The notes under the pieces are model-generated. The model searched no databases and was not told where the DNA came from. It worked only from the letters and a program-made list of their open reading frames with translations. A stretch of 64,000 nucleotides of DNA from positions 17,753-81,752 of IMG/VR virus record IMGVR_UViG_3300009551_000007; one strand, given 5' to 3'. Positions within the stretch are counted from its first letter, which is position 1. Each line of letters opens with the position of its first letter. Below are positions 5,417-53,379 of the stretch, in pieces. This stretch comes from a virus. The position numbers and the translations under genes are program-made.

Positions 5417-5918
5417 GGTCGCTCTCGTTGGCTTGGGGCGAGATGGGACGGTGGAGACCGGAACCGCCGGGAACCAGATCGTTTATCTGCTCCTCCAGGC
5501 CCTCCGGTATCGGCATCTTCTTGCTCTTGGCCCAGGCCAGAATCACGCGGAGAATGGCGCGCGTCGCCGAGTGTTCCGTTTCACACCGTGATGCCCTCAC
5601 CACCGCGTCCCGCTCGCGGCTCTCGGCGGCGGCTATGGCGTCGTCACACTTCTTCTCCACCTCGTTGAACTTGGCGGTCTGCTTCTCGAACTCCTTATTC
5701 AGCCGGTCCACAACCTCCCATGCTTCCGTGGCCGCGCTCCGGTTCTTCTCCTGTCGAATGCTCAAGTCGACCCTGGACGCCTCCGCGCCGATCACGATGT
5801 TCTGTTCACGAATCTTCCTCACTAGTCTCCATACGACCGCCGCTGCCCCGACGAGCGGAAGGACCGACGAAACTAGGGCAGTTACCCACCATGGAGTGCC
5901 GTTGTTTTCCCCGTCCAT
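5400..5918 (-). CDS. holin-like membrane/coiled-coil protein
   Basis: N-terminal TM helix (WWVTALVSSVLPLVGAAAVVW) plus a long coiled coil. Confidence 0.45.
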   Translation of the reverse strand: MDGENNGTPWWVTALVSSVLPLVGAAAVVWRLVRKIREQNIVIGAEASRVDLSIRQEKNRSAATEAWEVVDRLNKEFEKQTAKFNEVEKKCDDAIAAAESRERDAVVRASRCETEHSATRAILRVILAWAKSKKMPIPEGLEEQINDLVPGGSGLHRPISPQANESDRDTDH

Positions 5919-5962
5919 CTCGCTCTCCGTCTGGGCTGGTGATCGTCCGGGCGACGGTGAGG

Positions 5963-6433
5963 TTACTCGCTCCCCTCCTCGCCCGTGCTACTGCGGTGTG
6001 CGCGGATGGCTTCGATGATTTGGGTCTTATTGGCGCGACTGTCGATGGCGATTTCTTCGGCGTCGGCGAGCTTCTTGAGGTCGGCCACCGTCATGTCTTC
6101 CAGCCCGTCACTCGCCGGTGCCGCTTCCTCCTCGGTCACTTCCTCGTCGGGCGTCTCTTCCTCGTCGGAGTGGGCTGCCCCCTTCGGCCCGATGTCTTTC
6201 TCGGTTTGAACGATGGGCTTCGGCGGGAGCGTCTTCGCCGGCTGCTTCAGGTTCTTCTTGGCGTTGGCGATCTCGGATTCGGTCGCGGGCCGGCACCGTT
6301 CGGGCATCGTTTCGGCCAGGTTCTCTTCCGACTCGAACACCGAATTATTCGGGTCACTACTGGTGTACGTTCGGGCGTTCACCCCTGTGCCGGTGACGTG
6401 TCCCCCGGCTGTGAGCTTGATCCAAAAAGCCAT
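5963..6433 (-). CDS. protein with C-terminal Rho-N/HeH-like domain
   Basis: LEDMTVADLKKLA...KTQIIEAI; a common gene type downstream of phage major capsid genes. Confidence 0.6.
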   Translation of the reverse strand: MAFWIKLTAGGHVTGTGVNARTYTSSDPNNSVFESEENLAETMPERCRPATESEIANAKKNLKQPAKTLPPKPIVQTEKDIGPKGAAHSDEEETPDEEVTEEEAAPASDGLEDMTVADLKKLADAEEIAIDSRANKTQIIEAIRAHRSSTGEEGSE

Positions 6434-6539
6434 GACGGTCTCCTGTGGGAGGTGTGGACGGGCGATTCATGAGGCGGGCGGCTCTGGGACGCCGGCACAG
6501 CGTATCGGTCGTAGGAACCGCCAGAGCCGCCCATGTGTG

Positions 6540-8226: not shown

Positions 8227-9810
8227 TCACTTCTTTTGTGGCGCGAAGTCCCACTTGGCGTCTTCCAGCGGTGCCTCGTTAATCACTGGCGTCGGGTACG
8301 TTCCGGCGGCACCGAAGAAGTTGTTGGTCGGCGCGGTGAACGGGTTGAGCACGGTAGTCGGCTGGTTCGGGTTGCCGGTAGCGGTCGGCATCAGCGAGAG
8401 CATCATCTGAAGTTCTTCAATCGGCTTCGCCGTGAGGAACTGAACCGCCTTGTCGCGCTGCTCGCCCGCAGCCATATTGGCGACGAGCTGGCCGATAACT
8501 TGGTTCTTCTCGTTCTGGTGGACCTGGACCGCCGAGTTCCACACCGGGCGGAGCGCTTCGGGCATCTGCTGCAGCCACTGGTCGGGCGACAGCGTCCCTG
8601 TCGGCGCGGGCGTCTGGGCCGGGGCGGGTTGAGTTTGAGTGTTATTGGTGGGCACGGCTACCGGTTGGGTCGGGGTAGGAATTTTGGGCGTGGTCTTCCA
8701 GGTGTTCGTAGTTCGGTCGTAGGTGTGTTGGTTGCCGTAGCCGTCGACGAAGCTCGTCATGCCGGCGTTGGCGGCGATCTGGCGGCGTGCGAAGTCCATT
8801 GCCCTCAGGTCGTTGTCGGTGAGCTTTTCGAGTTCGGTCTGGGTGCGGCCCTTCCACGGCGCGTCGTCGGGGACGACGTTGCAACCGCAGTTGGTTACGA
8901 GTTGGTTGACCATCGCCGCACGTTGTTCGGCGGTAAGCGGAATCATGGTATCTCCTGTGACGGACGGGACGGGGGACTGGTCGGTGTTCGTGGTGGGCTT
9001 GGTTCCGCACATCGCGCCGAACATGCCCATTTGACGCTTGGTGAGTTTATGACCGTTGACCATGCCGTCCTTCATGATCTTACATGCCTTGTCGGGGGTC
9101 ATGTCGAGCATGCCGGACGGGTGAGCCTTATTGAGCACCTCGACGAGACCGGCGAGTTCGGCGATGAAGCCGGGACCGCCCGACACTTCGACGTGAATGC
9201 CCTCGTTGAGCGTGACGCTCTCCAACGGCACCGGGTCGACGGGAGTGTTCAACGTCGGGAGGAGCTGGTTCACGAGGAACCCGCAGCCGTCCTTGATCGT
9301 GCACGCGCCCGGCGAGTCGAGGAGCACCGCCAAGTGATCGGCCTTGTAGTTCCGCGCCGTGGCGACGTAGGACCGGCCGTTATGGTTCGCGCCGGCCGGA
9401 GCTGGCTGGTTGGTAGTGAATAGTCCGGTCGACAGCCCGAACGGTTTCTTATTGCGGAGGTAGTCGATTATGCGTGGCTCGACTTGATTAGTGGCCTCGA
9501 CGTCGAACCATGCTTCGGCACGTAGCCGACCGTCGTAGGTGCTACGGTGGAGGCGGCCAATTACGTCGATGTCCGGGTCTCGCCCGGAGACGTGAAAGCC
9601 GTTACGGACGGGATGACCGACGGTAATGGGGACGTCATTCCACTGTGAGACGTCGCGCTTCACCTCGTCTTCGGGGTAGTACAGCGGGCCGTTCGAGCCG
9701 GGCAGTACGCCGGGCACAATGAGAGTGGCGTTGGCAACGAGGTACTCACGCCCGTTCCGCTTCACGGAAGTGACAGTGTGTATGCCGTTGAGAATCAGGA
9801 GGGATTCCAC
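8227..9810 (-). CDS. prohead protease (DUF2213-like) fused to scaffold
   Basis: PITVGHP, LSTG and DHLAVL...GAC motifs; low-complexity helical C-terminus. Confidence 0.75.
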   Translation of the reverse strand: MESLLILNGIHTVTSVKRNGREYLVANATLIVPGVLPGSNGPLYYPEDEVKRDVSQWNDVPITVGHPVRNGFHVSGRDPDIDVIGRLHRSTYDGRLRAEAWFDVEATNQVEPRIIDYLRNKKPFGLSTGLFTTNQPAPAGANHNGRSYVATARNYKADHLAVLLDSPGACTIKDGCGFLVNQLLPTLNTPVDPVPLESVTLNEGIHVEVSGGPGFIAELAGLVEVLNKAHPSGMLDMTPDKACKIMKDGMVNGHKLTKRQMGMFGAMCGTKPTTNTDQSPVPSVTGDTMIPLTAEQRAAMVNQLVTNCGCNVVPDDAPWKGRTQTELEKLTDNDLRAMDFARRQIAANAGMTSFVDGYGNQHTYDRTTNTWKTTPKIPTPTQPVAVPTNNTQTQPAPAQTPAPTGTLSPDQWLQQMPEALRPVWNSAVQVHQNEKNQVIGQLVANMAAGEQRDKAVQFLTAKPIEELQMMLSLMPTATGNPNQPTTVLNPFTAPTNNFFGAAGTYPTPVINEAPLEDAKWDFAPQKK

Positions 9811-9901
9811 GCCGGTAACTCGCAGTAGTTTGTTGCTATCCGCGAGTTACCTTAGTGGAGTGAAAGAGTTGACTTCTAGACGTGCGGGGAAACAAAGACG
9901 C

Positions 9902-44811: not shown

Positions 44812-47034
44812 CTAGAGGGTCACGCCTTCACTCCAGCTCACCTCATTAAACTCAACACCTACCGGCGTGGGGATACCGAACCCCTCACCGCCCTTCTCCA
44901 TGAGGCGTTGGAGTACCCGTATCCTACCGAGGTTCGAGTGTTTCGGGTTCGTCTTCGGGTGGGCACGTTTCGGGAAGTCGAAAACGATTTCGTCGTGGAC
45001 CTGAATGGCCATGAAGTAACCGTCGTGTGCGAGGTTGCCGCCCCGCGCCAGTACCTGTCTGTTCCACTCGTCGAGCTGTTCCTGGCACCTCACCATGGCG
45101 CGGGCGGTCCACCACATAGCCGACCCTTGAATATGATAGTTTAGCGGGACGGTTTCGAGGATATAGCCCCTCTCCGTTCGCGTACACATGATCGGATAGC
45201 CGCGCGCCGGGTCAACCGACTTGTCGGGAATCGTCTCCACGTACCCGTACTTGTTGGCGAACCGTATGCACTTCTGGTTGAGTGCCTCCAGTTTCGAGAA
45301 CCGCTGTTTTAGGAGGCGGTGGCTGTATTGCTTATGGAACGCGCGGTCTGCCGTCCCCCATCCGTCAACCTTCTCTACTGCGCCGTACTGGACCGCGAAC
45401 CCGCCGTTTTTACACCACTGGTAGTAGCTCGCGCCGTACTTCTTCTTGCAGTACGGACCTGCTTTATCGAGACCCACTTCCGCCACCGCCGCGTCCCATA
45501 TGTCGGGGTAGACGGTATGGAACCGTAGCAAGTGGTTGGAGCCGTAGTACGGCGGTGATTCCGAGTTCTCGAATATCTCGATCAGTTCCTCTTGCAAACT
45601 CTCATATGCCGGTAGTCGGTCCTCGATGCCCTTCGCGTCGAGTGAGTACCATTCGCGACCCGGCCCAGGGCCGAAGCCCTTGCGGAGATTGAACGATTCC
45701 TTCTTCGAGACGTTCTGCACGTTCGGGTACTTACAGCCGGCGCGGAGGGTGTCGGTGCCGGTCTGACGGTAGTCCGGGCATAGCGTGTACCACTCGCCCT
45801 CCGTCATTAGCCCCATAACGTCTTGTTCCATGGGTATCCAGAACCGCTTATAGCCCTCCATGTAGATTATCGCAGTGTCCCGACTCCGTTTCTCCTCAAG
45901 TTTACATATGAACGTCCGCTCCTTGGACGTGATCGGGAGCGTCAGTTTGTAGTGGGGTATAGCCACCTTGGCGTCGAGACTCGGCGCGTTGGTCTTGGAT
46001 TTCGGGTTGCGGACGTGCTCCAGCTTCATCTTGTCGAAGCACAGTTCTCGGAGCGAGTTATTGACCCCGCTCTTAGGGAGCACCAAGTCATGACCGAACG
46101 ACTTGGCTATCGACACACTGACGCGAGCCGCCCGTTCCGATTCTTCGCGGTACTCCGTCGTCAGTTCGTCGAGACGGAGGCGATTGACGGTCACGCCCCG
46201 GTCCTCCATGCGGTAGAAGATCGCCGGTAGCCTCATCCGTTCGGCGAAGATCGCACCGAGGTTCCGCTGTTCGATGATCTTCCGCTGTTCTTTCCATAGC
46301 GGAATCTCTATGCCGGAGTCGGCGTTACCGTAATCGCGCAGAACCGTCCACCATGGATGCCCTACCGGCAGTTTCCGCTTTAGCGCTAGCGTATACGGCA
46401 TTTCGGCTTCGGACATCATAGCGGGCAAATTAAGTGTTTTGGCGACAGCCCTCGGTAACCAGTAGTCGGCACGCCAGAACTCCTTGTCGTTGGAAGGGTT
46501 CATGGGGTGGTCTTCGGTGTTTATGTTCCAGTTCCCGTACTTCGCAACGAAGTCCTTAGTGCGCACGAGCCGCCGCGCCTCCTTCACGGCGTTCTCCAGC
46601 GCCTTTTCGAGGGGCTGTATATTGACTTGAAGGTACAGCTGAGCGCAGTCGGTCAGGTTCCGGGGCTTGTTCGAGTAGATGAGGTGGGCACCCACTTGGG
46701 TGTCTATAACGTGCCTCCAGACCTCGTAAACGTCCCAGTGCTCCCACATACCAATCGAAGCTAGTGCGAAGATGTCGAACTTGGCGTTGTGTAGGATCAG
46801 ACCGGCGTCCGGGTCAACACTCACGTCGCCTATGGGCCCGTTCGGGCCACTGGCAAACAGTAGCTCACCGATCTCGCGGACGTCGCCCGGCGGAATTAAC
46901 GGCATCCGCGTCAACGGGTCCACATCCCATTCCCAGTAGCGGAGCGTACCGTCACCTTCGCAAGTAGTGACGAAAAAGGGCCGCGTCCCATGGTCGAAAT
47001 CTAGACCGGTCGTTTCAGTGTCGAGGGATATCAT
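44812..47034 (-). CDS. polA: DNA polymerase family A with 3'-5' exonuclease
   Basis: DTETTG, HNAKFD, PNVQN, motif A DAKGIEDR, motif B CKNGGFAVQYG, motif C VHDE. Confidence 0.9.
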   Translation of the reverse strand: MISLDTETTGLDFDHGTRPFFVTTCEGDGTLRYWEWDVDPLTRMPLIPPGDVREIGELLFASGPNGPIGDVSVDPDAGLILHNAKFDIFALASIGMWEHWDVYEVWRHVIDTQVGAHLIYSNKPRNLTDCAQLYLQVNIQPLEKALENAVKEARRLVRTKDFVAKYGNWNINTEDHPMNPSNDKEFWRADYWLPRAVAKTLNLPAMMSEAEMPYTLALKRKLPVGHPWWTVLRDYGNADSGIEIPLWKEQRKIIEQRNLGAIFAERMRLPAIFYRMEDRGVTVNRLRLDELTTEYREESERAARVSVSIAKSFGHDLVLPKSGVNNSLRELCFDKMKLEHVRNPKSKTNAPSLDAKVAIPHYKLTLPITSKERTFICKLEEKRSRDTAIIYMEGYKRFWIPMEQDVMGLMTEGEWYTLCPDYRQTGTDTLRAGCKYPNVQNVSKKESFNLRKGFGPGPGREWYSLDAKGIEDRLPAYESLQEELIEIFENSESPPYYGSNHLLRFHTVYPDIWDAAVAEVGLDKAGPYCKKKYGASYYQWCKNGGFAVQYGAVEKVDGWGTADRAFHKQYSHRLLKQRFSKLEALNQKCIRFANKYGYVETIPDKSVDPARGYPIMCTRTERGYILETVPLNYHIQGSAMWWTARAMVRCQEQLDEWNRQVLARGGNLAHDGYFMAIQVHDEIVFDFPKRAHPKTNPKHSNLGRIRVLQRLMEKGGEGFGIPTPVGVEFNEVSWSEGVTL

Positions 47035-47199
47035 AGGACGGATTCTCTGGGAGAAACTAGTACCAGAAGCTAGTCGAGGGGGTTGCCGAGGAAGTATACG
47101 GCGTCCGTGCCGTGCTCGCGGAGTTATTCGAGTCGTCGGCACGGCGGCGCGTCACTACGGGTGATAAAGACGTAGTAACGGCGAATGGGCCGTGCCCGC

Positions 47200-47595
47200 T
47201 TAGCGGTCGTCATCAGGCGCTAACTCTTCAGCCAACTTCGCTATGTCGGCCACGAGCGCGTCGGTCGGGCCTTCTACGTAGAGCCGGTTGCGGAGTTTCG
47301 ACACTTTCGATTGTACATTTTTCTTCTCGCGGCGTTCGACGCGGTAGTATTCATGCTCCGCTTCCTCCTTTTCCGCGAACACCTTCAGATACTCCTTGTT
47401 CGTCTTACAGAACGCCTCGAACGCCGCCTTGGCCCTCTCGTGCCGGTGCTTGGCTACGATCTGTACTTCTGTGTTGGCTGACGACAGGCTATTGAGTGCC
47501 TTGTGTAGGTCGCTCTTCCGCCTCTCGGTCTGTTGGATTTGGGTTTGCGTCATTAGCGGCTTGTCGCCTGGTGTCGGGTCGGGTTTCTTTGCCAT
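47200..47595 (-). CDS. hypothetical coiled-coil protein
   Basis: 131 aa helical ORF. Confidence 0.5.
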   Translation of the reverse strand: MAKKPDPTPGDKPLMTQTQIQQTERRKSDLHKALNSLSSANTEVQIVAKHRHERAKAAFEAFCKTNKEYLKVFAEKEEAEHEYYRVERREKKNVQSKVSKLRNRLYVEGPTDALVADIAKLAEELAPDDDR

Positions 47596-47690
47596 CTGTT
47601 CTGCCCTTCATTAAACATGGGAGGCACGGACGACCGGAGGAACTGACCCCCGAACCGCCACATGCGATACATTTCGGGCGGTGGACTGGC

Positions 47691-49010
47691 TTAGGCATTT
47701 TGATGCGCCGTAATCAGTGCGAGGACTGCCGCGATGACGTCGGGCAGAATTTGTTGAGGCGTCTTCCCGGCTATCAGGTCCGAAATCACGACCGGCAGTA
47801 CCGTCGTGAAGATCAGCGCGAACAGTCCGGTCGTGATTGGCCCGCCTAACTTGGCCTTCACCGAGGGATGATCGAGGGCGTCGCGGATGATCGCTATTGC
47901 CTTGGCGAGCCGCCCGCCGCCGAGTTCGGCCTTGCCCGCCTGGTTCGTCACGGTGACTTGCTGAGGTGCGACCGTTAGCGCCGGAATGTCGACTGACCCG
48001 ATGCGCCCGCCGAACGGCCCATGCACCACCAAGCCCTTGATCGGTGTCGTCGTGCCGCCGGATGTAGTGCCGTGGAACGTGAGTGGCGCGGGCGGTGGTG
48101 GGGGACTTGGCGGAGACGGAGGGGAGGGTGGCGACGGCGGCGAAGGCGGGCTGGGAGGTGGAGGTGAGGGCGGCGACACGCCGGGAAACATTGCGACTAC
48201 CGCAGCCACCTTGGTCGCGTTCCCACCCATCGCGACCCATTTCGACGCCTGAACACTCACGTGCCGGCCCTTGGCGTCCAGACCCGTTGCCTTGTCGAAC
48301 TGCTGCCGAGAGAACGCCACGAACGTCTCCGGCTCGACGCTGGCGACGAACTTCGGGCCGACCGTGCACTTGTCCCCCCAAGTTATCAACTGGTAGTTAC
48401 CGCTCGCGTCCACGTCGGCGAGGGGCGTGTAGTGCCCGTTCTGGTCGTCCGGTGTCATGGCGCTGAGCCACTTCGTACCGGGTTCCCACGTGTCGAGGAA
48501 GGCGTCGGGCACGCTCCACGCCATCATTACGGCGAAGAACTGATCAATGGCGTACTGGGCGAGTGGAACATTGGTTACGTCGATGTCGAGGTGATCATCG
48601 ACGACGTAAGCCGGGTTACCCATGAGACCGCCGCCGCCGGTAGTCCACATGCCGCCCGTTCCGACAAGCATGTCCTCGTCGGTGCCGTTGTCGCCGCCCG
48701 AATACCTCTCGTACTGACTGTCGAGGGCGTTGACGTTCGGGGTGATCTGGGAACCCTTGCCCTGACGCCACGCCCAAATGACGTCAACGTGATCGCACAT
48801 GGCCGGTCCGCATATGCCGAGGCGGTCGTTGTCGTCCATATTGAATACGGGCGCGTGATCGCCGAGACTACTGACGGGCAGTGTCGTCACCGGGACAGCA
48901 CCCGCGACCGGGGCGAACGACGCAATGGCGGTCTTCCGCCGCATACGTTCACGGGGATGAAACACGACGTCGTGGCCGCGCTTCTTCAGTTTCTTTACAA
49001 CTCGTTCCAT
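47691..49010 (-). CDS. papain-like cysteine peptidase with Ser-Pro repeat linker and hydrophobic C-terminus
   Basis: NDRLGICGPA (Cys), NGHY (His), ITWG; SPP repeats; C-terminal TM-like helices. Confidence 0.55.
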   Translation of the reverse strand: MERVVKKLKKRGHDVVFHPRERMRRKTAIASFAPVAGAVPVTTLPVSSLGDHAPVFNMDDNDRLGICGPAMCDHVDVIWAWRQGKGSQITPNVNALDSQYERYSGGDNGTDEDMLVGTGGMWTTGGGGLMGNPAYVVDDHLDIDVTNVPLAQYAIDQFFAVMMAWSVPDAFLDTWEPGTKWLSAMTPDDQNGHYTPLADVDASGNYQLITWGDKCTVGPKFVASVEPETFVAFSRQQFDKATGLDAKGRHVSVQASKWVAMGGNATKVAAVVAMFPGVSPPSPPPPSPPSPPSPPSPPSPPSPPPPPAPLTFHGTTSGGTTTPIKGLVVHGPFGGRIGSVDIPALTVAPQQVTVTNQAGKAELGGGRLAKAIAIIRDALDHPSVKAKLGGPITTGLFALIFTTVLPVVISDLIAGKTPQQILPDVIAAVLALITAHQNA

Positions 49011-49043
49011 ACGGTCTCCTAATTGGCATGGGTAAGGCGCGAC

Positions 49044-49196
49044 GCCTGAGAGCCTTCAAGGGTCTTACTTCACGGGACGATTCCCGCATAGCTTGTCGGG
49101 TGCGGTCAAGCGGCCCTGCTAATCTGCCCGTTCCGTTGTTACTCAGGGGACACGGAACACGTCCCGGCGAGCGTCACCGTACTCGCCCTCTCAGGC
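49044..49196 (-). ncRNA. candidate multibranch structured RNA
   Basis: Closing stem GCCTGAGAG/CTCTCAGGC; internal stems GGCGAG/CTCGCC, GGGACG/CGTCCC and TTCCGT/ACGGAA. Confidence 0.45.
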
Positions 49197-49199
49197 TAG

Positions 49200-49273
49200 A
49201 GGCTCTGGTGGGGGGTCGAACCCACAACTCCGGGTTTAGAGTCCGACGTTTTACCGGTTAGAACTACAGAGCC
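49200..49273 (-). tRNA. tRNA with CUA anticodon (amber suppressor; Trp-like body)
   Basis: Acceptor GGCTCTG/CAGAGCC; D arm GTTC..GGTA.AAAC; loop CT-CTA-AA (anticodon 49237-49239); T arm GTGGG-TTCGA-CCCAC; one extra C in the T loop, an A-C mismatch in the anticodon stem, no encoded CCA. Confidence 0.75.
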
Positions 49274-49277
49274 GAAA

Positions 49278-49375
49278 GACCGACCGAGTAAAGGTTCGTC
49301 CCCTGCCGCCTCACGGTCACCACTACAAGCAGTGACCGTCTCGACGAAAGCGGCAAGGCAGTTACCCGGTCGGCC
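49278..49375 (-). ncRNA. long interrupted hairpin between the two tRNA-like genes
   Basis: GGCCGACCGGGTAA/TTACTCGGTCGGTC, TGCCGC/GCGGCA and ACGGTCAC/GTGACCGT. Confidence 0.5.
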
Positions 49376-49377
49376 AG

Positions 49378-49515
49378 TCCCCGCGGCCGGAATCGAACCG
49401 GCGATCTCTCCAGTGTTTACCCTATGGCGGCTAGTCGGAGGGTTGAGACCGAATTCCCCGCCACCATAGAGTCGTACACCTTAGAATGAGCGCTCTACCA
49501 CTGAGCCACGCAGGG
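49378..49515 (-). ncRNA. tRNA-like RNA (138 nt) with ~65-nt structured insertion in the anticodon arm
   Basis: Acceptor CCCTGCG/CGCGGGG; D arm GCTC-AGTGGTA-GAGC; T arm GCCGG-TTCGATT-CCGGC; insertion has a 13-bp helix ACTCTATGGTGGC/GCCGCCATAGGGT. Confidence 0.7.
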
Positions 49516-49661
49516 GTCCACCGTCGCGGCGTCCGGTCGACGAGCAAGCCAAAACTCCGACCTCGCGCCGCGACGGTAGTATGCGAGTCGTAGGGGAGGC
49601 GCGGGTTATCAGTCCGCCGGCCGTCCTCGTCACGGCCTCTCCCCTACGACGGGGAAGTGCT

Positions 49662-51029
49662 TCAGGCCATGTTCTCCAGCTGGTCGTACTTGACGCCCTT
49701 CCATGTCTTATTGCGGTCTTCGAGAGACAACACCCAGCACGTCCGCTCGTCGGGCTGGACGGCACTGATCTCGACCTCGATGGCCTTCGTCATCGGCTTC
49801 TTGGTCTTCGGGTCGGTGCCCTTGAATAAGAACACGTCACCGACCGCCGGGTGCCATTCGTCCCCCGCCGAGTCCGCCGGCGCGTCTTCGGCGGGTGCCG
49901 CGCCATCTTCCGGCGAAACGACCGACTTGATCAGTTCGGCGATCTCGCTCCAACTGCCGCAAGCCCCAATCTGATCGTCGGTGATACCGTGCTTGTTGGC
50001 GATCTCGGTTAGTCTCGCTGCGGCTGACTCTTGCTCCGAATTGGTGGCGTCGTCAGCTGCCGCTACCAACTCGTCAAAAGGGATTTCGTCGCCAACCTGG
50101 TACTCGTCGGACGGCACGGGTTCCGGTGCCGGTGCCGGCTTCGGTGCTGCCGGTTTCGGTCCCGGTTTCGGGGCTAGGGGCGCTTTCGCGGCCGGTGATG
50201 GAGCCGGTTTCGGTGCTCTCGGTTTCGGTCCCATGGGCGCTTTCGGTGCCGCAGCTGGAGGCTTCGCGGTTACCGGTGCGGGCTTGGCTTGAACCGGTGA
50301 GACTGGGGCCGGTTTGGGAGCGGTAACTGGTTTCGGTGCGGCGGGCTTCGGAGCAGTAGCGGCAGCAGCTGGTGCCTTAGCTGGGGCGGGCGGTTTCGTC
50401 GCTGCCGGCTTCGGGGGTGGCGGGGTTTGAGTCGAGACCTGAGCCGATTCCTCGACGCCGTCACCCGGATGCTCGAACCCTTCCGGCGGTTCGCAGACCT
50501 CCTCCCATTGATGGAACGTCCTCGGGTTGGGGAACTCCATCGTGGGTTGCCCCTGCCGCGTCGAGAACCTGATACACGGCTGCGATTGGACAATGGCTTG
50601 AATCGTGAGTTCGAGTTGCTCATCCAATCCTTCTTCGGTGAACTGCGACGTGTCGACGCCGAACATGCGGAACAAAGCGTACAACTTATTCAAGTTGTCC
50701 TGAAGGGTCTTCGAGGCTTTCGTCGGCGTGTCGTAGAGGTAGACGTTCTGGTTCGTCCGCCGGCCCTTCACCTTCCTCTGGTTCCCGGCGTCGTCGATCA
50801 CGAAGTCCGGGGTGATGGCGATGGCGGCGGCGTAGAAGAACGGCTTGCCTTTATTGTCGCCGTCCTTGTGCAAGTCGAACTTCATCTCTTTCAGGTACGC
50901 GACGCCCTCGACGTTGGGGGGCATTTCGCCGAACGACTGGGGTAGCCCCGTTTCGTTCTTCACTGTTTCGGAGGCTGCCGCGAGCGCCCCACTAATTTGA
51001 CTGAGAGCCGATTTCATCGTGCCTGCCAT
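49662..51029 (-). CDS. putative ssDNA-binding/replication accessory protein with long Pro/Ala/Lys linker
   Basis: Follows the AAA ATPase and exonuclease genes; beta-rich N-domain, PAKP-rich linker, acidic C-domain; AAGGAG RBS. Confidence 0.5.
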   Translation of the reverse strand: MAGTMKSALSQISGALAAASETVKNETGLPQSFGEMPPNVEGVAYLKEMKFDLHKDGDNKGKPFFYAAAIAITPDFVIDDAGNQRKVKGRRTNQNVYLYDTPTKASKTLQDNLNKLYALFRMFGVDTSQFTEEGLDEQLELTIQAIVQSQPCIRFSTRQGQPTMEFPNPRTFHQWEEVCEPPEGFEHPGDGVEESAQVSTQTPPPPKPAATKPPAPAKAPAAAATAPKPAAPKPVTAPKPAPVSPVQAKPAPVTAKPPAAAPKAPMGPKPRAPKPAPSPAAKAPLAPKPGPKPAAPKPAPAPEPVPSDEYQVGDEIPFDELVAAADDATNSEQESAAARLTEIANKHGITDDQIGACGSWSEIAELIKSVVSPEDGAAPAEDAPADSAGDEWHPAVGDVFLFKGTDPKTKKPMTKAIEVEISAVQPDERTCWVLSLEDRNKTWKGVKYDQLENMA

Positions 51030-51273
51030 TGCTTGCTCCTTGTGAGTTAGAAAGTGCCCCTCAGCCGATTTCGCGGCGTGTTTTACGGGCTGGCCGCCCG
51101 GACCGTTTGTCTGTCCGAAGTTACTCGCGGGCTATTACCCGCGAGACTTATCACCGGGAGTCGAACCCGATTCCCTTCACACCTGCCCTCGGTCAGCGAG
51201 TGGGAATCGAACCCACCTTTTCGCACACTGTCTTCCAGAAAGCGGAGTATACCCGAAACCTCTCGTAACGGTT

Positions 51274-52146
51274 TCATTCGTCCGGAAACTGAAACTCGCC
51301 GCGAATGACCGACACGATTTTGTCGTAGTCGGGGTCGATCAAAATGTCGGGGAGCGGGAACCCTTTCGGGGCGCGGAACTTGGTCTGGTACGTCGCGTGC
51401 GGGCCCATCCTCAAACAGTACTCGACACGCCCGGTCTTCTTGAGCATGGTTTGTTCCTTGCCGGCGATCTTCACCACGCTCGGTCGCATCTCACTGCGCT
51501 TGAACGTTTGCATGATGTAGTCGACGGCACCGTTCGTCCAGTTGGTGAGCGACGGCATTAGTGCCGCACCGACCGACGCCTCAATCACGTCCGAACCTTC
51601 GCCCTCGCCGCCGAACGTCTTCTGGTGGGCCACTATCACGACGTTTTGAGCGACGCTGAGGAGGGCGCGCAGGTTCTCGCGGAACTGGGTGGATATGGTA
51701 CCGTACTGCTGTTGACTGGCCGTCCCCCAGCCCTTCTGTTCGGGTATCTTAGTCAGCCCGCAAACCTCCTTTAGGATCATGTCTTGGTAGCCCGTGGCAT
51801 GGTCGAGCACCAGTGTCCGGAAACTCGACGCATGATTCTCGGCCAGCTCAACGAGTTCGCCCGAATCCTCCAACTTGAACTCTTTGATCCGGCCCTGGTT
51901 CTCCGCAGTGTAGACGCTCCTGAGTTCGCCCGGTTTCTTGCCCCCGCTCACCGACATCCAAAGGAGCGGCGCGGGGAACGTCGAGGCGATAGTAGTCTTG
52001 CCCGTTCCGCTCACTCCATACAGTAGCACCTTTATGCCGTCGTCGTCGGTGAACTGTATTGGTTGTATCCTATCGAGGAGCGACCGTTTCGGAGCGGGCG
52101 CGGCTCTCGCGCCGGGTCTTATCGGGTTGATTCTCGGCGGCGGCAT
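51274..52146 (-). CDS. AAA_24/Sak4-like recombination ATPase
   Basis: LLYGVSGTGKT, LVLDH and VVIVAHQ motifs. Confidence 0.75.
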   Translation of the reverse strand: MPPPRINPIRPGARAAPAPKRSLLDRIQPIQFTDDDGIKVLLYGVSGTGKTTIASTFPAPLLWMSVSGGKKPGELRSVYTAENQGRIKEFKLEDSGELVELAENHASSFRTLVLDHATGYQDMILKEVCGLTKIPEQKGWGTASQQQYGTISTQFRENLRALLSVAQNVVIVAHQKTFGGEGEGSDVIEASVGAALMPSLTNWTNGAVDYIMQTFKRSEMRPSVVKIAGKEQTMLKKTGRVEYCLRMGPHATYQTKFRAPKGFPLPDILIDPDYDKIVSVIRGEFQFPDE

Positions 52147-52155
52147 TTTAGCTCC

Positions 52156-53316
52156 TTACAGTTCGGGGAACAAGTCGGTGATCCGCTCCAGCCCCACTTC
52201 GGAACCGGTTTCGAGGTAGGCGTCCACGTCGGTACAGCCGCCCTCGTCCATAGGATTATAGACGCCGAACGGGTAGCGGTAATGCCGTGGGGTATGAGTC
52301 GGGAACACATTACGTCGGAGTTCGCCTTGGAACGGGTTACCATTATTCATCTTGCACCAATCCCACCATTCGTAATCGTCGAGTATGTTTTCGAGCACGG
52401 GATTGAGGAACGTCTCGCGGAACTTCATCAGGTTGGACGGACTGACTTCCGACGCCCACCGGTAAAAGAACTCGCCACGGTTCTCACGTATGATCGCGCC
52501 CAGCCGTTCCATGTAGCTCTCGAACGTCTCACCTTGTGGGTTACTCTTACTCGGCTTATGCTGAACGATACTACCCTTGCCGCCCGATAGTGGTCGGCGA
52601 ATCACGTTGTAGCGCACGCCGGCTATCATACTCCCTTTCGGAATCACCGCGTTCAGTTCCGGCGTGTACCGTGCTTCGTGTAATGCGACGAGGTAAATCA
52701 TGGTCTGAAGGTCGAACTTGAGCTGACGATGGAGGGCGTTCACGTCCACGTCGCCTTTAACCTTGTTCTCCTGAAGCCAGACCCGTTTGCCCAAACCCAT
52801 TGCGCGTTCGTCGAGTAAGTCGACACTGTCCCACTTGCCTCGGAGTCTAACGGACCGGCCCGACGGCAGTTTGTAGTCGATACTGAAGTGCTTCTCGGCC
52901 AGTAGCGGCGTGCGGTCCACGGCTTCCGGGTTGTCGGCCCAGTGATCGAGGTACACGGGGAACTGTTGAAGACACACGTTGTACCACTTGTTAACGTGCT
53001 CTTGGTCGATGCGGTAGTGGGCTGCGAGTCTCATGGCGTAGTCGAGCAGTGGCTGCCAGTGATCTATGCCCTGGGCGTATGCTTCCTCGCAGACGTGCCA
53101 CATGTTACCGTATTCGATTCGATGGTTGAAGCCTTCTACACCACTCAACCCTTCGATTACGAGGAGGCGGAACCTCTCGCGGCATACCAGCCAACGGCTA
53201 ATGAGACTCTGAGTTATACCGTCTTCGACCGGACCGCGCCACACGGACCTTTCCACGGTGACCGGCGGTTTTAACTTCGTTCCCGTCAACGCGGAACGCT
53301 TCTGCGGGGCAGGCAT
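52156..53316 (-). CDS. PD-(D/E)XK (RecB/Cas4-like) exonuclease
   Basis: ITQS...C.ERF, G...H, LRGKWDSVD, ENK and Q..IY motifs. Confidence 0.75.
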   Translation of the reverse strand: MPAPQKRSALTGTKLKPPVTVERSVWRGPVEDGITQSLISRWLVCRERFRLLVIEGLSGVEGFNHRIEYGNMWHVCEEAYAQGIDHWQPLLDYAMRLAAHYRIDQEHVNKWYNVCLQQFPVYLDHWADNPEAVDRTPLLAEKHFSIDYKLPSGRSVRLRGKWDSVDLLDERAMGLGKRVWLQENKVKGDVDVNALHRQLKFDLQTMIYLVALHEARYTPELNAVIPKGSMIAGVRYNVIRRPLSGGKGSIVQHKPSKSNPQGETFESYMERLGAIIRENRGEFFYRWASEVSPSNLMKFRETFLNPVLENILDDYEWWDWCKMNNGNPFQGELRRNVFPTHTPRHYRYPFGVYNPMDEGGCTDVDAYLETGSEVGLERITDLFPEL

Positions 53317-53379
53317 ATCTTCTCCCAGTAAGAGTCTACGAACGTAACCTAGTGACAACTAGGCCAGTAGGAATTGATT

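What the first reader, a model, noticed from the sequence alone, without database searches (positions are those of the whole stretch)
49020..49655. 640-nt non-coding array of six back-to-back folded RNA modules
Seen, 5' to 3' on the minus strand: hairpin ~49587-49650 (GTCGTAGGGGAG/CTCCCCTACGAC), hairpin ~49520-49577 (ACCGTCGCGGCG/CGCCGCGACGGT), the expanded tRNA-like RNA, a ~98-nt interrupted rod (49278-49375), the CUA tRNA, and a multibranch domain closed by GCCTGAGAG/CTCTCAGGC (49044-49196). Spacers are only a few nucleotides and there is no credible ORF. Inference: a polycistronic ncRNA precursor in which the tRNAs act as RNase P/Z punctuation to release undescribed RNAs, or a single large structured RNA.
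Basis: partly seen in the sequence, partly recalled or inferred. Interest (0 to 1): 0.75.

Follow-up and report, generated by a model that had tools for sequence, protein, structure and literature searches.

The report
Phage tRNA mini-cluster with hairpin spacers
This non-coding stretch of a phage genome is a small tRNA gene cluster whose spacers are very stable RNA hairpins, and one of its two tRNAs carries a long hairpin where its anticodon loop should be, so it probably cannot read codons.

Summary
The array is real but is better described as a compact tRNA cluster than as six new RNAs. The window is part of a complete 81.7-kb uncultured phage. Between two genes of its replication module lie: a gene-end hairpin (hp1), then two "hairpin + tRNA" units: hp2 + a tRNA-like gene with about 66 extra nucleotides in the anticodon arm, and a 98-nt rod + a CUA (amber-suppressor) tRNA. 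Five modules are supported: both tRNAs exceed Rfam's cut-off, and hp1, hp2 and the rod fold at z = -4 to -7. The sixth, "multibranch" domain is weak (z = -1.5 or 0) and is most simply the 5' UTR of the next gene. No non-tRNA module has a homologue anywhere I searched, so covariation could not be tested. In related phages the same slot also holds tRNA(-like) genes. All 12 examined have a stable hairpin ending 0-6 nt before the tRNA 5' end, and 5 of 12 have non-canonical anticodon arms. Best reading: co-transcribed tRNA punctuation, where RNase P/Z cuts leave hairpin-capped RNAs. No transcript data exist. Earlier notes of this scan describe insert-bearing tRNA-shaped RNAs in other phages, and I found seven more in IMG/VR.

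The parts
49662..51029 (-). Upstream gene P0002 (455 aa, Pro/Ala/Lys-rich linker, no Pfam or PHROG hit); stop TGA 49662-49664. Follows a Sak4-like annealing protein gene (51274-52146).
   Evidence: Homologues precede the tRNA slot in relatives (BLASTP E 4e-14 for L005, 1e-4 for L018).
49587..49650 (-). hp1: Y-shaped gene-end hairpin, 12-bp perfect closing stem plus two inner hairpins, starting 11 nt after the P0002 stop.
   Evidence: dG -39.2, z -5.35. Same shape and position after a stop codon as the element at 6476-6532.
49520..49577 (-). hp2: leader hairpin of the expanded tRNA, ending 4 nt (2 nt in the extended fold) before its 5' end.
   Evidence: dG -38.2, z -4.08; position.
49378..49515 (-). 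Expanded tRNA-like gene: 7-bp acceptor stem (C1-G72, one U-G pair), canonical D arm (AGUGGUA loop) and T arm (UUCGAUU loop), discriminator A, no encoded CCA. The anticodon arm is replaced by CUC/GAG, a 7-nt bulge AUUCUAA and a long hairpin.
   Evidence: RF00005 45.7 bits, model positions 1-71, 77 nt for 11. Fold. No single deletion restores a canonical anticodon arm.
49411..49480 (-). Hairpin domain inside the expanded tRNA (5 bp, internal loop, 13 bp, capped by a small stem-loop).
   Evidence: The 81-nt stretch 49406-49486, which also takes in the 3-bp helix below this domain, gives z -4.34, 0 of 200. That stretch has 4 G-U pairs and is 13.1 kcal/mol more stable in sense than in antisense.
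49278..49375 (-). 98-nt interrupted rod that fills the whole spacer between the two tRNAs (2 nt after the first, 4 nt before the second).
   Evidence: dG -59.5, z -6.98. In one search the 94-nt helix read from the upstream fold has 6 G-U pairs and is 17.1 kcal/mol more stable in sense than in antisense.
49200..49273 (-). tRNA with anticodon CUA (loop CUCUAAA). Irregular: a C13-A22 mismatch, an A31-C39 mismatch, and one extra base in the T loop.
   Evidence: 48.3 bits with the alignment; ARAGORN.
49011..49196 (-). Leader/5' UTR of the next gene, including the claimed multibranch domain (49044-49196) and the RBS AGGAGA (49015-49020).
   Evidence: z -1.50 and +0.04; sequence.
47691..49010 (-). 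Downstream gene P0001 (439 aa, SPPSPP linker, hydrophobic C-terminus, no Pfam or PHROG hit). In three relatives its homologue sits elsewhere, with no gap in front of it.

Best explanation
The stretch is a compact tRNA cluster embedded in the phage's replication-gene operon. It is transcribed together with the flanking genes. Its order is: a gene-end hairpin (hp1), then two 'leader hairpin + tRNA' units (hp2 + expanded tRNA-like RNA; rod + tRNA-CUA), then the 5' UTR of the next gene.

Inferred mechanism. Host RNase P cuts at the 5' end of each tRNA shape. A 3' enzyme of the RNase Z type cuts after the discriminator, since no CCA is encoded. These cuts divide the transcript. Each upstream piece then ends 2-4 nt after a very stable hairpin, which should block 3' exonucleases: the P0002 mRNA ends in hp1-hp2, and the spacer becomes the 98-nt rod. 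The hairpins may also keep the GC-rich flanks from mispairing with the tRNAs.

tRNA-CUA is a candidate weak amber suppressor. The expanded RNA keeps everything needed for tRNA-type folding and processing but has no usable anticodon arm. It is therefore a non-decoding tRNA look-alike, either a pure processing signal or a natural 'tRNA scaffold' carrying a hairpin.

Shown: the sequences, the folds, the tRNA matches, the layout in relatives and the strand asymmetry. Inferred: co-transcription, the cleavage sites, the protective role, and any role for the released pieces.
For: 1. Only two tRNA matches exist in the whole 81.7-kb phage, and both are here. All parts lie on the coding strand with 2-11 nt spacers. 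No sigma-70-like promoter or U-tailed terminator was found on that strand.
2. Related phages carry tRNA(-like) genes in the same slot, after the P0002-family gene and before the polymerase.
3. All 12 tRNA(-like) genes examined there have a hairpin whose 3' end lies 0-6 nt from the tRNA 5' end. These are window x2, L005, L008, L012, L016 x3, L018, L023, L026 and L027. By a strict rule (closing stem of at least 7 bp, dG at most -20) 7 of the first 9 pass, against 37 of 600 random positions in the same loci. The three found later all show the hairpin too.
4. The hairpins share no sequence. Two paralogous leaders in L016 differ by one compensatory change, GGCGCCC/GGGCGCC against GGTGCCC/GGGCACC.
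5. The sense RNA folds better than the antisense for 10 of 12 leaders, by 17.1 kcal/mol for the rod and 13.1 for the insert. That points to RNA rather than DNA structure.
6. 5 of the 12 tRNAs have non-canonical anticodon arms while their acceptor and T arms are intact. That is what a processing signal would need to keep.
7. 9 of 12 are followed by CT rather than CCA.
8. hp1-like hairpins follow other stop codons in this genome, 5 of 85 genes against 10 of 500 random positions.
Against: - There is no transcript, end-mapping or cleavage datum of any kind, and the host is unknown. The closest cultured phage polymerases are under 25% identical.
- No close relative of the array was available, so no covariation test of hp1, hp2, the rod or the insert was possible. 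The one compensatory change comes from another phage.
- A hairpin 0-6 nt from the cleavage site could hinder rather than help RNase P (recalled: the protein subunit contacts the single-stranded leader).
- In more distant phages, dense tRNA clusters mostly lack such hairpins: 1 of 7 internal tRNAs in L048 and L057 has one with a closing stem of at least 7 bp. The rule is therefore not general.
- Three leaders in relatives carry U-runs (L018, L023, L027) and look like ordinary terminators.
- In GC-rich DNA a loose measure of upstream structure is often met by chance: 258 of 600 controls reach dG at most -20.
- tRNA-CUA has three irregularities and may work poorly.
Confidence: 0.5

Rival explanations
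1. The hairpins are transcription terminators or attenuators of the upstream gene. The tRNAs and the next gene are made only by read-through, and the closeness of hairpin and tRNA is a by-product of compaction.
For: hp1 starts 11 nt after the stop codon. Similar hairpins follow other stop codons. Leaders in L018, L023 and L027 end in U-runs like intrinsic terminators. In distant phages the first tRNA after a gene usually has the hairpin while internal ones mostly do not.
Against: hp1, hp2 and the rod have no U-tract, and the terminator scan found nothing on this strand. The rod and two L016 hairpins lie between two tRNAs, where a terminator would silence the second tRNA. No promoter is visible after them.
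Confidence: 0.2
2. A decaying tRNA cluster: the expanded tRNA is a pseudogene broken by an inserted palindrome, tRNA-CUA is a damaged tRNA, and the hairpins have no selected role.
For: The gap upstream of P0002 holds two orphan T-arm motifs and a truncated minihelix. 5 of 12 tRNAs in this slot are aberrant. tRNA-CUA has two stem mismatches and an 8-nt T loop. No module is conserved elsewhere.
Against: In the expanded tRNA all 16 acceptor, D and T pairs and the conserved loop bases are intact, which random decay would not spare. The insert is itself a strongly folding, strand-asymmetric hairpin. Insert-bearing full-length tRNA matches recur in other phages.
Confidence: 0.15
3. One reading: hp1-hp2, the rod and the insert are functional small RNAs in their own right (regulatory, decoy or anti-defence), delivered by tRNA-guided processing or by a tRNA scaffold.
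For: Very low folding z-scores. The rod would be released with defined ends. The engineered tRNA-scaffold design shows that such chimeras accumulate in bacteria (PMC3753655, search listing and abstract start only).
Against: No homologue of any of them in relatives, in the phage's own genome, in the phage record collection, or in the pattern scans of IMG/VR and JGI metagenomes. No Rfam match at E up to 10. The positions are those of generic leader and gene-end hairpins.
Confidence: 0.12
4. DNA-level elements (replication origin, cruciforms or recombination sites) in the replication module, or one large structured RNA.
For: The stretch lies between replication genes, with many inverted repeats in 640 bp.
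Against: G-U pairs make the sense RNA far more stable than the antisense, which DNA hairpins would not show. No repeated motifs or iterons were found: one 14-nt imperfect direct repeat only. The modules fold independently.
Confidence: 0.03

Closest known systems
Phage tRNA gene clusters with co-transcribed extra stable RNAs (phage T4 tRNA region with species 1 and 2 RNAs; recalled, no paper seen: search did not list one)
   Same: tRNA genes packed head to tail in one transcription unit of a phage, with non-tRNA structured RNAs between them that are freed by tRNA-processing enzymes. T4 species 1 is rod-like and, as I recall, an RNase III substrate.
   Different: Only two tRNAs here, one of them non-decoding. 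The cluster sits inside a protein-coding operon. The spacer RNAs have no homologues, and every tRNA has its own leader hairpin.
MALAT1-mascRNA 3'-end formation (PMC8457004, PMC4824109, PMC13170383; search listing and abstract starts)
   Same: A tRNA-like element directly downstream of a protective RNA structure. RNase P cleavage makes the 3' end of the upstream RNA and the 5' end of a small tRNA-like RNA that does not decode.
   Different: That system is eukaryotic and nuclear and uses a triple helix. Here there are plain hairpins in a phage, half of the tRNAs look functional, and cleavage is untested.
Insert-bearing phage tRNAs: 'enigmatic introns' of Lak megaphages (Devoto et al. 2019, PMC6784885; passages read)
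   Same: Phage tRNA genes longer than normal because of an insertion in the anticodon region, of no recognised intron class.
   Different: The Lak inserts were called as introns whose removal gives a typed tRNA. Here no single excision restores a canonical anticodon arm. There is no sequence similarity, and the phages are GC-rich and 82 kb rather than AT-rich and 540 kb.
Engineered tRNA scaffolds (Ponchon and Dardel; PMC3753655, search listing and abstract start only)
   Same: Same architecture: a foreign hairpin replaces the anticodon loop of an otherwise complete tRNA body, which gives folding, processing and stability.
   Different: That design is man-made, whereas this is a natural gene whose cargo has no known function.
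Intrinsic terminators and gene-end stabilising hairpins of bacterial and phage mRNAs (general knowledge, recalled)
   Same: GC-rich hairpins a few nucleotides after stop codons.
   Different: No U-tract. The hairpins are unusually long (57-98 nt) with 12-14-bp perfect closing stems and inner branches, and they abut a tRNA 5' end.

Membership tests
tRNA (Rfam RF00005) | Covariance-model score at or above the gathering cut-off (29 bits) over the full model | tested here: met
   48.3 bits (49200-49273) and 45.7 bits (49378-49515), both covering model positions 1-71.
tRNA (Rfam RF00005) | Acceptor stem, D arm and T arm with the conserved loop bases | tested here: met
   Expanded tRNA: 7/7, 4/4 and 5/5 pairs, D loop AGUGGUA, T loop UUCGAUU. 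tRNA-CUA: acceptor and T stems intact, one D-stem mismatch, 8-nt T loop.
tRNA (decoding) | 5-bp anticodon stem closing a 7-nt loop with U33 and a purine at 37 | tested here: not met
   For the expanded tRNA, all 36 single-deletion readings were tried. The best has 4 of 5 pairs and no U33. tRNA-CUA meets the feature apart from an A31-C39 mismatch.
Intron-containing tRNA (group I or archaeal bulge-helix-bulge type) | Group I catalytic core, or a 3-nt bulge / 4-bp helix / 3-nt bulge motif at the exon-intron junctions | tested here: not met
   No intron or ribozyme family at E up to 10. The fold shows a 7-nt/1-nt junction and a 3-nt/2-nt internal loop, not a bulge-helix-bulge (read by eye). 66 extra nt are too few for a group I core (recalled).
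Intrinsic (Rho-independent) terminator | GC-rich hairpin followed directly by a U-run | tested here: not met
   No terminator-like site on the minus strand in 47500-51200. The bases after the hairpins are UCGCAUACU, GGAC and UUUC. Three leaders in relatives do have U-runs.
RNase P-made 3' end next to a protective structure (MALAT1-mascRNA type) | Protective structure ending immediately upstream of a tRNA-like element | tested here: met
   Gap of 0-6 nt for 12 of 12 tRNA(-like) genes in this slot.
RNase P-made 3' end next to a protective structure (MALAT1-mascRNA type) | Cleavage by RNase P, and stabilisation of the upstream RNA by the structure | not testable with these tools
   Needs cleavage assays or end mapping.
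YrlA / bacterial Y RNA | tRNA-like module with termini on a Ro-binding stem at the anticodon side; match to the Rfam model | tested here: not met
   No Y RNA family listed at E up to 10. Here the termini are at the acceptor stem and the long arm is closed. The topology of YrlA is recalled; for PMC4201824 I saw the listing only.
Any described RNA family, for hp1, hp2, the rod and the leader | Match to one of the 4227 Rfam 15 models | tested here: not met
   Only tRNA hits and chance-level hits (E 0.24-9) in 48800-49900.

The most novel reading that the evidence does not exclude
In this uncultured phage clade, 'stable hairpin + tRNA shape' is a selected RNA-processing cassette. On this reading the tRNA shapes, several of which can no longer decode, serve mainly as RNase P/Z cut marks. 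The cuts slice the replication operon into hairpin-capped mRNAs, a phage counterpart of MALAT1-mascRNA. The pieces they release or carry (the 98-nt rod and the hairpin grafted into the tRNA body) would be functional small RNAs delivered on a natural tRNA scaffold.
Probability: 0.2. Interest if true: 0.65.

Novelty: new variant of a known kind. Interest (0 to 1): 0.38.

Why it matters
If the hairpin-plus-tRNA unit really is a processing cassette, phages would be using tRNA shapes as cut marks and mRNA end-makers, not only as decoders. That would explain why many phage 'tRNAs' have unusable anticodon arms. It would also caution against counting every phage tRNA hit as translational capacity.

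The expanded tRNA adds one more natural example of the tRNA-scaffold design. The rod and the scaffolded hairpin are cheap targets for a Northern blot or an in vitro RNase P assay.

As it stands the array is mostly ordinary: a small tRNA cluster with structured spacers, in a phage with no cultured relative and no expression data.

Tried and rejected
Known RNA families. Rfam at gathering score over the window and at E up to 10 over 48800-49900 gave only the two tRNAs plus chance-level hits.

Homologues of the modules: none found in any of these searches.
- blastn against 50,697 phage records.
- The whole records of three relatives (best E 0.3).
- blastn and blastn-short against all loci fetched up to then.
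- The phage's own 81.7-kb genome (only 10-15-nt chance matches).
- An exact 20-mer of the tRNA/insert junction in IMG/VR.
- An exact 23-mer of the rod in JGI metagenomes.
- A 25-mer of the expanded tRNA's 3' half and a 19-mer of the CUA anticodon arm in GTDB genomes.

These blanks therefore do not show that the modules are unique.

Closer relatives through proteins. This was the one visible chance of a covariation test.

Intron reading of the expanded tRNA: rejected.

Class II (long variable arm) reading: rejected. The first 17 nt after position 26 give 1 of 5 stem pairs.

Protein coding: the three ORFs over the array have low GC3. I did not run them against Pfam.

Mobile palindromic element: rejected. 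There are no paralogous copies in the genome.

Host or tRNA origin: not resolved.

Papers. Two searches for phage tRNA-like RNAs with anticodon-loop insertions or leader hairpins listed nothing that describes this layout. A search for the T4 species 1 RNA work listed no such paper. Supplementary files were not opened, so the Lak phage intron tables could not be compared.
Full report
**Context**

The window is bases 17753-81752 of a complete 81,752-base IMG/VR virus record with direct terminal repeats. Nearly all genes from 1 to 55,500 lie on the minus strand.

The finding sits in the replication module:
- PD-(D/E)XK nuclease (52156-53358).
- AAA_24 / Sak4-like annealing protein (51274-52146).
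- P0002 (49662-51029), unannotatable.
- The 642-nt gap.
- P0001 (47691-49010), unannotatable.
- A small Cys-rich ORF.
- Family A DNA polymerase (44812-47142).

The nearest cultured phage polymerases are under 25% identical. The host is therefore unknown.

**Observation check**

Five of the six modules hold.
- Rfam finds two full-length tRNA matches and nothing else. They are 49200-49273 (48.3 bits, anticodon CUA) and 49378-49515 (45.7 bits, with 77 nt where the model has 11). These are the only tRNA matches in the whole phage.
- hp1, hp2 and the rod fold far better than dinucleotide shuffles, with z of -5.35, -4.08 and -6.98 and 0 of 200 shuffles as good in each case.
- The hairpin inside the expanded tRNA gives z -4.34.
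- The whole stretch gives z -6.13.
- Spacers are 2-11 nt.
- ORFs over the array have GC3 of 0.52-0.60, against 0.69-0.77 for real neighbours.

The sixth module fails. The 'multibranch domain' gives z -1.50, with 16 of 200 shuffles as good. With the rest of the leader included it gives z +0.04. Its MFE is 0.3% of the ensemble. It is most simply the 5' UTR of P0001, whose RBS (49015-49020) lies inside the reported range.

**Relatives**

P0001 homologues in three IMG/VR phages have no gap in front of them. The array is therefore not tied to P0001.

The slot after the P0002-family gene is a different matter.
- The closest relative (G001, whose P0001 homologue is 73% identical to the window's) has, after its P0002 homologue (BLASTP E 4e-14), a hairpin and then a tRNA with a 21-nt anticodon loop. 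The Cys-rich ORF and the polymerase follow.
- Polymerase-anchored loci show tRNA(-like) genes upstream of the polymerase in L008, L012-L014 (same coordinates and score; counted once), L016 (three), L018, L023, L026 and L027.
- Loci without a tRNA hit in the fetched flank include L009-L011, L015, L017, L019, L021, L022, L024, L025, L028-L031 and L034. ARAGORN calls an 87-nt tRNA in L022 that Rfam did not list.

**The leader-hairpin rule**

In all 12 tRNA(-like) genes of this slot, a stable hairpin ends 0-6 nt before the tRNA 5' end.
- A loose measure is uninformative in this GC-rich DNA: 258 of 600 random positions reach dG at most -20.
- A strict measure (closing stem of at least 7 bp and dG at most -20) is met by 7 of the first 9, against 37 of 600 controls. 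The two misses (the rod and L018) are hairpins whose outermost predicted pairs differ.
- The three tRNAs found afterwards (L023, L026, L027) all have the hairpin 2 nt upstream.
- The hairpins share no sequence.
- Two paralogous leaders in L016 differ by one compensatory pair.
- Sense RNA is more stable than antisense in 10 of 12. The sense folds hold 33 G-U pairs against 11 in the antisense folds, and the differences reach 17.1 kcal/mol for the rod and 13.1 for the insert. That favours RNA over DNA structure.
- Three leaders (L018, L023, L027) end in U-runs like terminators; the window's do not.
- In more distant phages the first tRNA after a gene usually has such a hairpin, but tRNAs inside dense clusters mostly do not.

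**hp1**

hp1 is not special to the array. A hairpin with a closing stem of at least 8 bp starts within 15 nt after the stop codon for 5 of 85 crude gene calls, against 10 of 500 random positions. The element at 6476-6532 has the same Y shape as hp1, a 12-bp stem and two inner hairpins.

The array therefore decomposes into a gene-end hairpin, two hairpin-tRNA units and a leader.

**The expanded tRNA**

Its acceptor (7 of 7 pairs, C1-G72, discriminator A), D arm and T arm are flawless. After three pairs (CUC/GAG) comes a 7-nt bulge, AUUCUAA, opposite a single G. Then come 5 bp, a 3x2 internal loop and 13 bp.
- None of the 36 single-deletion readings restores a 5-bp stem with U33 and R37. The best has 4 pairs and no U33.
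- A long-variable-arm reading fails, with 1 of 5 pairs.
- No intron or ribozyme family matches.

So it is not a simple intron-bearing decoder. It is a tRNA-shaped RNA with a grafted hairpin.

The bulge shares UUCUAAGG with the anticodon loop region of the tRNA-Arg(UCU) of L016. That hints at descent from such a tRNA, but this is inference only.

In the slot as a whole, 5 of 12 tRNAs have non-canonical anticodon arms:
- the window's expanded tRNA;
- L005, with a 21-nt loop;
- L008 and L027, with 6-nt loops;
- L012, with no alignable arm.

**Is the expanded tRNA one of a kind?**

No. An IMG/VR scan used one D-arm spelling, a 75-105-nt gap and a T-loop consensus.
- Of 26 matches with gaps of 75-94 nt, 8 have at least 6 of 7 acceptor pairs. 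Two of these are the same sequence in L119 and L154.
- Six of the seven loci tested give full-length RF00005 matches of 121-128 nt at the insert-bearing gene. L095 holds two more long matches, of 126 and 139 nt. L119 does not give such a match.
- In three of the seven loci one deletion restores a canonical arm; in four it does not.

Earlier notes of this scan describe similar RNAs in other phages. In print, Devoto et al. 2019 report 'enigmatic introns' in Lak phage tRNAs and state they knew of no earlier report of introns in phage tRNAs (PMC6784885, passages read).

**Other context**

- TAG ends 24 of 85 (or 25 of 98) crude gene calls, including the polymerase. The code is therefore standard, and tRNA-CUA could at most give partial read-through.
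- tRNA-CUA has a D-stem mismatch, an A31-C39 mismatch and an 8-nt T loop.
- The gap upstream of P0002 (51030-51273) holds two orphan T-arm motifs. That region's fold is not significant, z -1.44, and no tRNA match appears there.
- Three of the genome's six strict T-arm motifs flank P0002. The fourth tRNA-related arm, that of tRNA-CUA, has an 8-nt loop and is not counted.

**Mechanism**

This section is inference. One transcript runs from P0002 through the array into P0001. RNase P cuts before each tRNA shape. An RNase Z-type enzyme cuts after the discriminator, since no CCA is encoded and 9 of 12 tRNAs in the slot are followed by CU.

The predicted products are:
- a P0002 mRNA ending in hp1-hp2;
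- a 138-nt tRNA look-alike;
- a roughly 100-nt rod;
- tRNA-CUA;
- a P0001 mRNA with a new 5' end.

The hairpins would protect the new 3' ends and insulate tRNA folding.

Rivals are terminators with read-through, a decaying cluster, independent small RNAs, and DNA-level elements. They are weighed in their own sections. The terminator and the protection readings predict nearly the same RNAs, and only end mapping with RNase P depletion can separate them.

**Verdict**

The finding is real but mostly ordinary: a tRNA mini-cluster with structured spacers. Two less ordinary traits stand out. One is the strict hairpin-tRNA adjacency across a phage clade. The other is a tRNA body carrying a hairpin in place of its anticodon loop.

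No module has a homologue in the searches listed under Tried and rejected, and no expression data exist. Function beyond processing and stability therefore remains conjecture.

Noticed in passing
window 49376-49377 and 49198-49199; L005, L008, L016, L018, L023, L026 just after each tRNA: 9 of 12 tRNA(-like) genes in this phage clade are followed by CT directly after the discriminator base instead of CCA; chance would give about 1 in 16 each. It may be a 3'-processing signal.
   Followed up: no
window 51030-51273 (minus strand): The gap upstream of P0002 holds two T-arm-like motifs (GUGGG-UUCGAUU-CCCAC and UCGGG-UUCGACU-CCCGG), the first with a 4-bp acceptor-like extension, plus a perfect hairpin CUCGCGGG...CCCGCGAG. 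There is no tRNA match and the overall fold is not significant (z -1.44). They look like fossils of tRNA genes or minihelix signals, so P0002 is flanked by tRNA-like pieces on both sides.
   Followed up: partly
window 6476-6532, 759-823, 9806-9859; genome bases about 5446-5519 (outside the window): Other long intergenic hairpins sit a few nucleotides after stop codons, with 11-17-bp perfect closing stems. The one at 6476-6532 repeats hp1's Y shape. In one search the closing stems are 12 bp in four of the five gene-end hits and 11 bp in the fifth, which is the antisense reading of one of the four, a hairpin shared by two convergent genes.
   Followed up: partly
L005:1501-1587 (IMGVR_UViG_3300047160_000603): The closest relative's tRNA has a 21-nt anticodon loop. 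Removing 12 nt would give a perfect CUUGU-UUCAUAC-ACAAG arm (anticodon CAU), but only with two bases at position 26 and a 6-nt variable loop. It may be a mini-intron or a second non-decoding tRNA.
   Followed up: partly
L008:2170-2240 and L027:2252-2324: Two related phages carry otherwise good tRNA matches (53.2 and 50.4 bits) with 6-nt anticodon loops. ARAGORN reports two-base 'anticodons'.
   Followed up: no
L095 (IMGVR_UViG_3300015606_001334, 359,550 bases): A huge phage locus with more than 20 tRNA hits contains three full-length tRNA matches of 126, 127 and 139 nt, that is, several insert-bearing tRNAs in one cluster.
   Followed up: partly
L016:5786-5853 and 5926-5984: Two paralogous leader hairpins precede tRNA-Met and tRNA-Arg(UCU). 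The alignment as a whole has a mean column identity of 80%, with conserved arms, a variable loop and one compensatory C-G to U-A change in the closing stem.
   Followed up: yes
window 44812-47142 and genome-wide: TAG ends about a quarter of the crude gene calls, including the DNA polymerase, in a phage that carries a CUA tRNA. Read-through products are possible but were not examined here.
   Followed up: partly
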